This document shows positions 19,800 through 21,320 of a DNA stretch of 64,000 nucleotides, piece after piece. The DNA is taken from the NCBI GenBank assembly GCA_951406725.2, contig OX597830.1:22010001-22074000 (forward strand), in the 5' to 3' direction. A program made the position numbers and the translations under genes. This DNA comes from Octopus vulgaris (Eukaryota). Below the pieces are notes generated by a model. That model worked only from the letters and a program-made list of their open reading frames with translations, was not told where the DNA came from and did not search any database. How positions within the stretch are numbered: the first letter of the stretch is position 1; each line of letters starts with the position of its first letter.

Positions 19800-20068
19800 C
19801 TGGAAAAAAAAAAAAATCAACACCATTTTTCTAGTTTAGTTAAAAATTTAAGAAGATCGCATGTCTCTTTTACTCTTTTACTTGTTTCAGTCATTTGACT
19901 GCGGCCATGCTGGAGCACCGCCTTTAGTCGAGCAAATCAACCCCAGGACTTATTCTTTGTAAGCCTAGTATTTATTCTATCGGTCTCTTTTGCCGAACCA
20001 CTAAGTTGAAGACAATAACTACACCAACACTTGAGTTACCAAATATTTTATTAACTTGCATCATTATA

Positions 20069-20278
20069 ATACAGTTCTATATTTAAGAGATTAAGAATTA
20101 TGTACATTATTTACATTTGATGGATATTTGTCCTCATCTTGTTTGTTGTTCACACAACATTTCAGCTGTTATACCCTCCAGCCTTCATCAGGTGTCTTGG
20201 GGAAATTTCGAACCTGGGTTCTCATTCCTAAGGTATTTTTTTATGTTGTTGTTGTTGTCATTATTATTATCATTATTA

Positions 20279-20323
<45 letters not shown>

Positions 20324-20419
20324 TCACTGCCTGGAATTGAACTTGGAATCTTAGGGTTTGTAGTGGTTAAGAGCATGGGCTACTAACCCCAAGATTCCGA
20401 GTTCGATTCCAGGCAGTGA

Positions 20420-20491
<72 letters not shown>

Positions 20492-20658
20492 CAACAACAA
20501 CAACAACAACATCGAAAAATACCTTAGAAATGAAAACCTAGGTTCGAAATTTCCCCAAGACACTGATGAAGGCTGGAGGGTATAACAGCCAAAACATTAT
20601 GTTAACAACAAACAAGATGAAGACAAATATCTGTCAAATGTAAATAATGTAAATAATC
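20069..20658. mobile_element. Head-to-head inverted dimer of the tRNA-head/hammerhead SINE (family D) with 12-bp target-site duplication
   Basis: About 20077-20357 (-) and 20361-20657 (+) are reverse complements of each other and match 34021..34275. TGCATCATTATA flanks both sides (20057-20068, 20659-20670). Confidence 0.85.
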
Positions 20659-21320
20659 TGCATCATTATATTTACAAATGCACATTCAGTAAATTAATGG
20701 TTCAATGTTCAATGAATATAATGTTTAACTTACTAGGAAATCAATGTGTTACAGGACGCTAGAACTAAAGACTAGTGCTTGTTTTCTACTACAACATAAG
20801 CATGTTACTTAAAAGTGAAAATGGAGTAGAGAACAACTCATTGCAATAAGTGACATAGATTGGCCCTAAACGTCTTAGCAACTCTCTGGCCTGAGGTTGA
20901 ATTAGCCAGAACAGACGAGAGAATATCATATAGGGGGGAAAAGAATCATGACTTATATAAACCTGAAGTAGCTTTGTTCAAAGTTGAATTTGCTTGCCTA
21001 TTTATCACTGCTGACCTAAAACCTACAATCTTCCATAGACCTTTTGGTAGGAAGATTTCAGCTCGCCAATCAATCTGATTGGCTGAGCCACAATTGTGTG
21101 AGCTTAATGGCTTTTATACTAGCCATGGTTCAAAGCTGAGAAATATGAATGCAATGGTTCAAAGCTGAGAAATATGAATGCAATGGTTCAAAACTCGGCT
21201 GGGGTCTTGCTATACTGGTAACAGAATTGTATTTTTAACATTATTATGCAGTCAAAATCTCTTTGGAAATAAGAGCCACTTAATGGACTTTCCACTGAGA
21301 GAGGTAAAATGAATAAATAC

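What the first reader, a model, noticed from the sequence alone, without database searches (positions are those of the whole stretch)
20057..20670. One insertion event made a ~590-bp palindrome: two ribozyme-SINEs head-to-head inside a single 12-bp TSD
Seen: two family D copies with 3' ends pointing outward and truncated tRNA heads meeting at about 20360. The direct repeat TGCATCATTATA flanks the whole unit. Known: inverted partial copies are typical of PLE insertions and unusual for ordinary LINE-mobilised SINEs. Inference: both target strands were primed on separate RNA copies, supporting PLE-type mobilisation. In tektin pre-mRNA (intron 5) this forms a stem of about 260 bp, a candidate ADAR substrate.
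Basis: partly seen in the sequence, partly recalled or inferred. Interest (0 to 1): 0.72.

Follow-up and report, generated by a model that had tools for sequence, protein, structure and literature searches.

The report
Octopus SINE hijacking Penelope insertion machinery
Two copies of an abundant octopus repeat, a tRNA-like head joined to a decayed hammerhead-ribozyme motif, sit head-to-head inside one 12-base duplication in a tektin intron, and their lopsided ends match two fixed family ends, so they were likely inserted in one step by a Penelope-type retroelement, which would make this family an unusual passenger of that machinery.

Summary
Observation confirmed. 20069-20658 is a 590-bp inverted dimer in intron 5 of Octopus tektin-4, flanked by TGCATCATTATA, which occurs only here in the window. 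The predicted pre-mRNA hairpin has 257 pairs. The arms differ at 19 places and are equally diverged from the family, so this is not an assembly fold-back.

In three DNA runs the family's two commonest 3' ends are exactly these two points (short end 36-38% of the two). An inverted truncated partner, a one-sided tail and a minimal hammerhead are the published signature of Penelope-like element (PLE) insertions; two head-less pairs of the same shape lie in this window. The geometry is therefore ordinary for PLEs.

The less ordinary part is the passenger: a high-copy tRNA-headed SINE behaving like a PLE end, which seven literature searches did not find described.

Not shown: the partner PLE, the empty site, two templates versus fold-back, ribozyme activity (both hammerheads are damaged), and editing at this locus (only a family-level A-to-G excess in one probable RNA run).

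The parts
20057..20068 (.). Left copy of the 12-bp target-site duplication TGCATCATTATA (last 2 nt may be element-derived)
20069..20096 (-). 28-nt 3' tail, present on the left arm only; ends at the family's commonest 3' terminus
   Evidence: family loose ends at 34020
20097..20246 (-). Left arm body (hammerhead region and 3' part ending in a 9-mer duplication)
20151..20196 (-). Left minimal type I hammerhead motif: core CUGAUGA/GAAA intact, but C11.1 to U and 15.2 C to U weaken it
20244..20319 (-). Left microsatellite linker, (TAA)20 and (CAA)5 in element sense
20320..20363 (-). Left tRNA-like head, truncated: no A box, B box with one change
20360..20363 (.). 4-nt GTAG/CTAC shared by both arms (junction microhomology)
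20364..20379 (+). 16-nt unpaired loop, from the right arm's head only
20360..20423 (+). Right tRNA-like head, starting inside the A box; B box intact
20424..20511 (+). Right microsatellite linker, (TAA)22 and (CAA)8
20509..20657 (+). Right arm body, ending at the family's second commonest 3' terminus (no tail)
   Evidence: family loose ends at 34041
20558..20603 (+). Right hammerhead motif, degenerate: G12 to A, 16.2 G to A, stem I broken
20659..20670 (.). Right copy of the TSD; one extra C at 20658 separates it from the arm
19802..21317 (-). Host intron between coding exons 5 and 6 of tektin-4 (boundaries approximate, from tblastn)
34013..34277 (-). Third, full-length family copy used as reference: A box, tRNA-like head, short (TAA)n, intact minimal hammerhead, tail

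Best explanation
This is an inverted dimer of an abundant octopus repeat (tRNA-like head, microsatellite, minimal hammerhead motif, 28-nt tail) inside one 12-bp duplication, likely made in a single insertion by the endonuclease and reverse transcriptase of a Penelope-like element, which would have primed copying from both cut target strands. Shown: the anatomy, the TSD, the two discrete family 3' ends that coincide with the two arm ends, and the equal divergence of the arms. Inferred: staggered nicks about 12 bp apart in AT-rich DNA; the left nick primed at the outer start site (tail included) and stopped at head position about 34; the right nick primed at the inner start site and ran to position about 14; the two cDNA ends paired through GTAG/CTAC and repair filled the gaps. 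Inferred for the family: a PLE 3' end fused behind a tRNA-derived polymerase III promoter, perhaps by inserting into its (TAA)n tract. This copy is predicted to be dead (no full A box in either arm, damaged hammerheads on opposite strands); in tektin pre-mRNA it would fold into a long duplex that ADAR could edit.
For: (1) TSD unique in the window and beyond chance. (2) Arms equally far from the family reference, 13 of 220 and 12 of 210 aligned sites; both carry A at third-copy position 34112 where the family majority in all three DNA runs has T, and both have a long (TAA)n(CAA)m linker. (3) In 3 of 3 DNA runs the two top loose-end sites are the full end (431, 334, 466 contigs) and 34041 (245, 203, 263), exactly where the left and right arms stop. 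(4) PMC8557442 describes an adjacent inverted 5'-truncated copy and a tail often at one end only; PMC11167929 shows a PLE protein cutting and extending both strands and starting at two sites whose spacing is the tail. (5) The third copy has all four published marks of PLE minimal hammerheads. (6) 4 of the 15 joints shown are strand switches, 3 of them with one side at the head's 5' end. (7) Two head-less pairs with the same shape occur in the window. (8) A cDNA primed on the left cannot fold back to give a loop in this orientation, and one primed on the right cannot supply the tail (sequence).
Against: No autonomous PLE sharing this 3' end was seen; no genome was available. The tail is 28 nt, below the published 30-40. 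The empty site was not looked for directly and this locus's own junction is not among the 15 of 140 joints shown. The short end finishes in a 9-mer duplication with variable extra units, which also resembles the repeat tails of some LINE-dependent SINEs (recalled). In the probable RNA run the second 3' site shown is 34047, not 34041. The direction (head-to-head or tail-to-tail) of the other strand-switch joints is not given. Nothing here separates two RNA templates from one reused template.
Confidence: 0.6

Rival explanations
1. Single event by PLE machinery, but through one cDNA: it was primed on the right at the full end, folded back on the 4-bp GTAG/CTAC stem, copied itself, and the right tail was then removed when the endonuclease resolved the intermediate.
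For: The loop orientation is what a right-primed fold-back gives. The arms share a minor variant and a similar long microsatellite. PMC8557442 attributes the tail to endonuclease-mediated resolution.
Against: A 4-bp stem with a 16-nt loop is weak. The arms differ at third-copy position 34046, a non-CpG variant carried by 27-29% of family depth in DNA runs, which fits two source elements. PMC11167929 explains the tail by two start sites and shows both strands extended.
Confidence: 0.22
2. Two independent insertions close together, or a later rearrangement between neighbouring copies, with the 12-mer match partly accidental.
For: Inverted neighbours that look independent exist in this window (1078-1377 and 3759-4014, separated by (TA)n). 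Up to 6 of the 12 TSD letters can be read as element sequence. The family is very abundant.
Against: No spacer DNA between the heads, a 4-nt shared junction, both outer ends at the family's exact termini, equal divergence and one shared minor variant. No second TSD pair was seen.
Confidence: 0.08
3. An ordinary LINE-dependent SINE inserted by L1-style twin priming; the hammerhead is a passenger.
For: Junction microhomology and a TSD of 12 bp fit twin priming. The short end has a short tandem repeat.
Against: In twin priming the second primer anneals internally on the same RNA, whereas here nearly the whole element is duplicated. Alu inversions are about 0.02%. Two fixed family ends and a PLE-type hammerhead are not LINE features.
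Confidence: 0.07
4. Assembly or amplification artefact (fold-back chimera).
For: Palindromes with microsatellites are hard to assemble; the junction itself was not checked in reads.
Against: The arms differ at 4 of 43 head and 15 of 149 body positions, with three CpG sites decayed on opposite strands in the two arms; only one arm has the tail; a TSD flanks the unit. Nine runs hold half or more of the sampled words of 19650-21050.
Confidence: 0.01

Closest known systems
Insertion units of endonuclease-positive Penelope-like elements (Penelope/Poseidon, Neptune, Nematis, Naiad; PMC8557442, PMC2377424, PMC11167929)
   Same: Adjacent inverted 5'-truncated copy, tail on one end only, two discrete 3' ends, AT-rich target, hammerhead near the 3' end.
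   Different: No RT or endonuclease ORF; the unit starts with a tRNA-like head with A and B boxes; the tail is 28 nt rather than 30-40.
Minimal hammerheads of metazoan PLE pseudo-LTRs (PMC4209133), including pairs 100-700 bp apart on opposite strands in Schistosoma
   Same: No helix III, palindromic 15.2-16.2 (CG), extra base between 9 and 10.1, G10.1-C11.1; the two motifs here are 372 bp apart on opposite strands.
   Different: Carried by a tRNA-headed short element; both motifs at this locus are mutated.
Sj-alpha / Sm-alpha SINE-like retroposons of schistosomes (Sj-alpha title seen in a reference list; details recalled)
   Same: Short interspersed element carrying a hammerhead.
   Different: Recalled as carrying canonical hammerheads and often in tandem; I saw no report of PLE-type tails or inverted dimers for them.
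Non-autonomous Chlamys elements such as MRC1 (PMC8557442) and metazoan non-LTR retrozymes (PMC7229834, PMC7761336)
   Same: Non-coding elements thought to be moved by PLE proteins.
   Different: No tRNA head described in the passages seen; they form head-to-tail arrays; retrozymes carry canonical type I hammerheads and PLE mobilisation is only proposed for them.
L1 twin priming (PMC2912911, PMC12016303)
   Same: Both target strands prime; microhomology at the inversion junction; one TSD.
   Different: One RNA is primed internally, so the 3' part is not duplicated; almost never seen in Alu.

Membership tests
Autonomous EN+ PLE | ORF with RT and GIY-YIG endonuclease | tested here: not met
   The unit is 590 bp with no such ORF; it is not an autonomous PLE.
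PLE-type insertion unit | Adjacent inverted 5'-truncated copy | tested here: met
PLE-type insertion unit | Optional tail at one end; two discrete 3' termini in the family | tested here: met
   Left arm only; two top loose-end sites in 3 of 3 DNA runs
PLE-type insertion unit | Tail length 30-40 bp | tested here: inconclusive
   28 nt, just below the published range
PLE-type insertion unit | AT-rich target | tested here: met
   TSD has 9 A/T of 12; family flank consensus is A/T-rich but of low agreement, 0.43-0.47
PLE-dependent non-autonomous element | 3' end shared with the pseudo-LTR of an autonomous PLE of the same genome | not testable with these tools
   No genome held; the PLE-like ORF fragment at 34290-34700 shows no match to the body
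PLE minimal hammerhead | Core CUGANGA/GAAA/UH, extra base 9-10.1, G10.1-C11.1, palindromic 15.2-16.2, no helix III | tested here: met
   All met in the third copy; left arm keeps the core with two wobble changes; right arm lacks G12; 0 hits in 20 shuffled windows
PLE minimal hammerhead | Self-cleavage (as a dimer or protein-assisted) | not testable with these tools
   Needs an in vitro assay; Rfam models give no match
tRNA-derived SINE | Internal A and B boxes | tested here: met
   A box in the third copy; B box in both arms, one change in the third copy
tRNA-derived SINE | Head homologous to a tRNA | tested here: inconclusive
   Cloverleaf only at ARAGORN threshold 80 of 100; none at default; no Rfam tRNA hit
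tRNA-derived SINE | Dispersed, high copy number, head and body linked in many copies | tested here: met
   17,694-27,009 contigs laid per DNA run; 3 of 3 window copies have both parts; one other contig bridges 34108-34243; 94 contigs end at the 5' end 34277 in X7. Depth over the head is about 0.3 of the body, so many copies lack the head.
tRNA-derived SINE | Polymerase III transcription | not testable with these tools
   Contigs give no start or strand
L1-type twin priming product | Inverted segment comes from upstream of the non-inverted segment, with little duplication | tested here: not met
   About 270 nt are present in both arms
Metazoan non-LTR retrozyme | Head-to-tail repeats of 170-400 nt with canonical type I hammerheads | tested here: not met
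   Inverted, minimal motif at this locus; one possible head-to-tail joint in the probable RNA run (table 5c) is unexplained

The most novel reading that the evidence does not exclude
Octopus carries a true polymerase III SINE, born when a PLE 3' end fused behind a tRNA-derived promoter, that is mobilised only by a Penelope-like RT/endonuclease: a SINE with a PLE rather than a LINE as partner, undescribed so far, present in many thousands of copies whose inverted dimers record two-RNA, both-strand priming by a dimeric enzyme.
Probability: 0.4. Interest if true: 0.65.

Novelty: new variant of a known kind. Interest (0 to 1): 0.45.

Why it matters
SINEs are normally paired with LINEs. A tRNA-headed element that inserts with PLE geometry would add a new parasite-partner pair. 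It would also give a short, very abundant natural substrate on which to test how PLEs integrate: the two start sites and both-strand extension were shown in vitro only in 2024 (PMC11167929), and how inverted units form is still open (PMC8557442). Such insertions create perfect long RNA duplexes in one step, which matters in an animal group known for heavy A-to-I editing (recalled). The single locus by itself is an ordinary decayed insertion.

Tried and rejected
Whole-genome counting: no genome is held. Collection scans for family copies: metagenome and genome scans each gave one bacterial chance hit, with 27 and 20 nt matching and no other part of the element; the viral scan gave none. Rfam: no match at gathering score in the window; only weak unrelated hits at E up to 10. 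ARAGORN at default: none. Single-strand folds of the hammerhead regions were not better than shuffles (z -0.07 to -1.4); two-copy cofolds formed stems I and II, in places between the copies, but say nothing on activity. The PLE-like ORF fragment beside the third copy was examined as a possible partner: retroelement N-terminal region, but no link to the family's body; left as coincidence. The share of sampled words held by probable RNA runs (0.35-0.37) was not used as evidence of intron expression, as repeats and the exon can give it. Earlier-finding look-ups by sequence and place were empty. The Luense 2017 paper on dimeric PLE hammerheads is not held. Considered and rejected: an active dimeric ribozyme at this locus (opposite strands, right core lacks G12); left-primed fold-back (wrong loop orientation); a one-off head-body chimera (linkage recurs).

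Full report
Setting. The exon next to the finding encodes a tektin fragment, 98% identical to Octopus sinensis tektin-4. The full protein maps to seven coding exons on the minus strand, and the finding lies between the fifth and sixth. No genome was available, so family evidence comes from the window and from one laying of public contigs.

Observation. TGCATCATTATA occurs only at 20057 and 20659. A match of 12 or more arose in 2 of 8,986 control pairs. Between the two copies lie 590 bp: a minus-strand arm (20069-20363) and a plus-strand arm (20360-20657), each made of a truncated tRNA-like head, a (TAA)n(CAA)m tract and a body. GTAG at 20360-20363 is shared, and 16 nt of the right head form the loop. 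The minus strand folds into 257 pairs. The arms differ at 4 of 43 head and 15 of 149 body positions. Three CpG sites decayed to TG in one arm and CA in the other, which excludes a fold-back artefact and argues against later gene conversion.

The family. A third copy lies at 34013-34277 on the minus strand. It has an A box, a near-consensus B box and a cloverleaf found only at a relaxed ARAGORN threshold; Rfam gives nothing. Its body holds a minimal type I hammerhead with all four marks listed in PMC4209133; a comparable descriptor gave 0 hits in 20 shuffled windows. I laid 4 of the 24 listed runs on this copy: 21,321, 17,694 and 27,009 contigs in three DNA or probable DNA runs and 2,104 in a probable RNA run. 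The output shows 24 of 1,193 loose-end rows, 15 of 140 joints and 40 of 157 letter differences. In all three DNA runs the two largest loose-end sites are the full 3' end and position 34041; the short end makes up 36-38% of the two. The left arm stops at the full end and the right arm exactly at the short end. In the RNA run the sites shown are the full end and 34047. Head and body are linked beyond this window, but the head has about 0.3 of the body's depth.

One event. Against the third copy read with family-majority letters, the arms differ at 13 of 220 and 12 of 210 sites; that reference may hide private changes of the third copy. Both arms carry one variant (third-copy position 34112) that is not the family majority and is not among the 40 rows shown. 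They differ at 34046, a variant with 27-29% of DNA depth. With the TSD, the flush junction and both ends at family termini, one event is far more likely than two (my estimate about 0.9).

Mechanism. PMC8557442 (passages) describes PLE insertions with an adjacent inverted 5'-truncated copy and a 30-40 bp tail often at one end only. PMC11167929 (abstract, main text and part of Methods) shows a PLE protein cutting AT-rich DNA on both strands, extending both, and starting at two sites whose spacing is the tail; it also found hammerhead cleavage dispensable in vitro. PMC4209133 (Results and Discussion) reports minimal hammerheads 100-700 bp apart on opposite strands; here the spacing is 372 bp. PMC2377424 (passages) shows inverted terminal repeats in Drosophila Penelope. 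For L1, the second primer anneals internally on the same RNA, and inverted Alu are very rare (PMC2912911 and PMC12016303, passages). I infer priming from both nicks, at the outer and inner start sites, and joining through GTAG/CTAC. A left-primed fold-back would give the loop in the other orientation. A right-primed fold-back needs later loss of the right tail; it stays the main rival. The partner element was not found.

Controls inside the window. Self-comparison found five self-palindromes of 80 nt or more, this one included. Two, at 58418-58560 and 60101-60213, are foldbacks in (TA)n with extra sequence on one side only and no tRNA head; I read them as PLE ends from their shape, and no hammerhead passed my descriptor there. 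One, at 3759-4014, is a pair with hammerhead-like motifs pointing inward. The geometry is therefore common in this genome, which lowers the surprise of the locus and raises confidence in the PLE reading.

Function at this locus. Neither arm has a full A box. The right hammerhead lacks G12 and the left has two weakening changes; they lie on opposite strands and would pair with each other in the pre-mRNA. Editing was not tested here. At family level, A>G plus T>C make up 34 of 93 listed places in the probable RNA run against 16 of 95, 11 of 86 and 24 of 127 in DNA runs (Fisher p 0.003, 0.0003, 0.005), and some sites rise from about 0.1-1% to 10-12%. But C>T and G>A variants are also enriched at some sites in that run, it comes from another individual, and its RNA status is a guess. 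This is a hint, not a result.

Comparison and novelty. It works like a PLE insertion and is not an autonomous PLE. It is probably a SINE, with tRNA ancestry only weakly shown. Searches for a PLE-dependent tRNA SINE or an octopus hammerhead SINE found no description; some searches served the mechanism. PMC6962438 (passages) only counts hammerheads and SINEs in squid; PMC7229834, PMC7761336 and PMC8969392 (passages) cover retrozymes and PLE structure; Sj-alpha was seen as a title only. Repbase, Dfam, subscription journals and supplements were not searched, and older octopus SINE papers are recalled only, so the family may already be catalogued. Earlier scan notes from other genomes show similar PLE foldbacks judged ordinary and one SINE-PLE pair judged a one-off; the latter prompted the linkage check above.

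Verdict. Real, most likely one PLE-mediated insertion, ordinary in shape; moderately interesting for what it says about the family. Interest 0.45, new variant of a known kind.

Noticed in passing
window 34290-34700 (-): Frameshifted fragment of a retroelement ORF directly upstream of the third copy; 77-84% to an O. sinensis protein of DUF8422, a domain that precedes RT in look-alike clusters. Motifs recalled as PLE N-terminal. About 830 bp upstream of the tektin start.
   Followed up: partly
window 58345-58560: Foldback in (TA)n, 88% over 143 nt, 6-nt-scale loop, about 75 nt of extra sequence on the left arm only; same shape as the finding, no tRNA head.
   Followed up: partly
window 60100-60275: Short foldback beside (TA)n with about 60 nt of extra sequence on the right arm only; part recurs at 26803-26866.
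   Followed up: partly
window 3755-4014: Inverted pair with hammerhead-like motifs (core CUGUAGA, palindromic CG) on both strands, 3' ends inward around (TA)n(TG)n; the left arm is about 40 nt longer.
   Followed up: partly
window 1078-1377: Two copies of another repeat family in inverted orientation, separated by (TA)n and flanked inside by (CAT)n; looks like independent insertion into a microsatellite.
   Followed up: no
third copy 34013-34195, run X11: Joint from 34195 to 34013 with 12 letters between and depth 448 in the probable RNA run, where most listed contigs have depth under 10: possibly a head-to-tail array or circle of a 195-nt head-less unit (table 5c; kind of joint not stated).
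   Followed up: no
third copy 34093, 34115, 34149, 34213: A-to-G type changes at 10-12% in the probable RNA run against 0.1-1.5% in DNA runs: possible family-wide editing.
   Followed up: partly
window 20637-20657 and 34041-34061: The short 3' end finishes in a 9-mer duplication, and some family copies carry extra units, as if copying slipped at the start.
   Followed up: no
third copy, CpG sites such as 34065/6, 34101/2, 34106/7, 34153/4: Strong CpG decay across the family (about 10-19% per site in DNA runs), suggesting these repeats are or were methylated.
   Followed up: no
window 32225-32346 and 32752-32873: 122-nt inverted repeat, 97% identical, enclosing a 405-nt stretch with a SINE-like repeat, in tektin intron 1.
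   Followed up: no
window 37643-38189: Tandem array with a 36-bp unit inside open frames of up to 295 codons.
   Followed up: no
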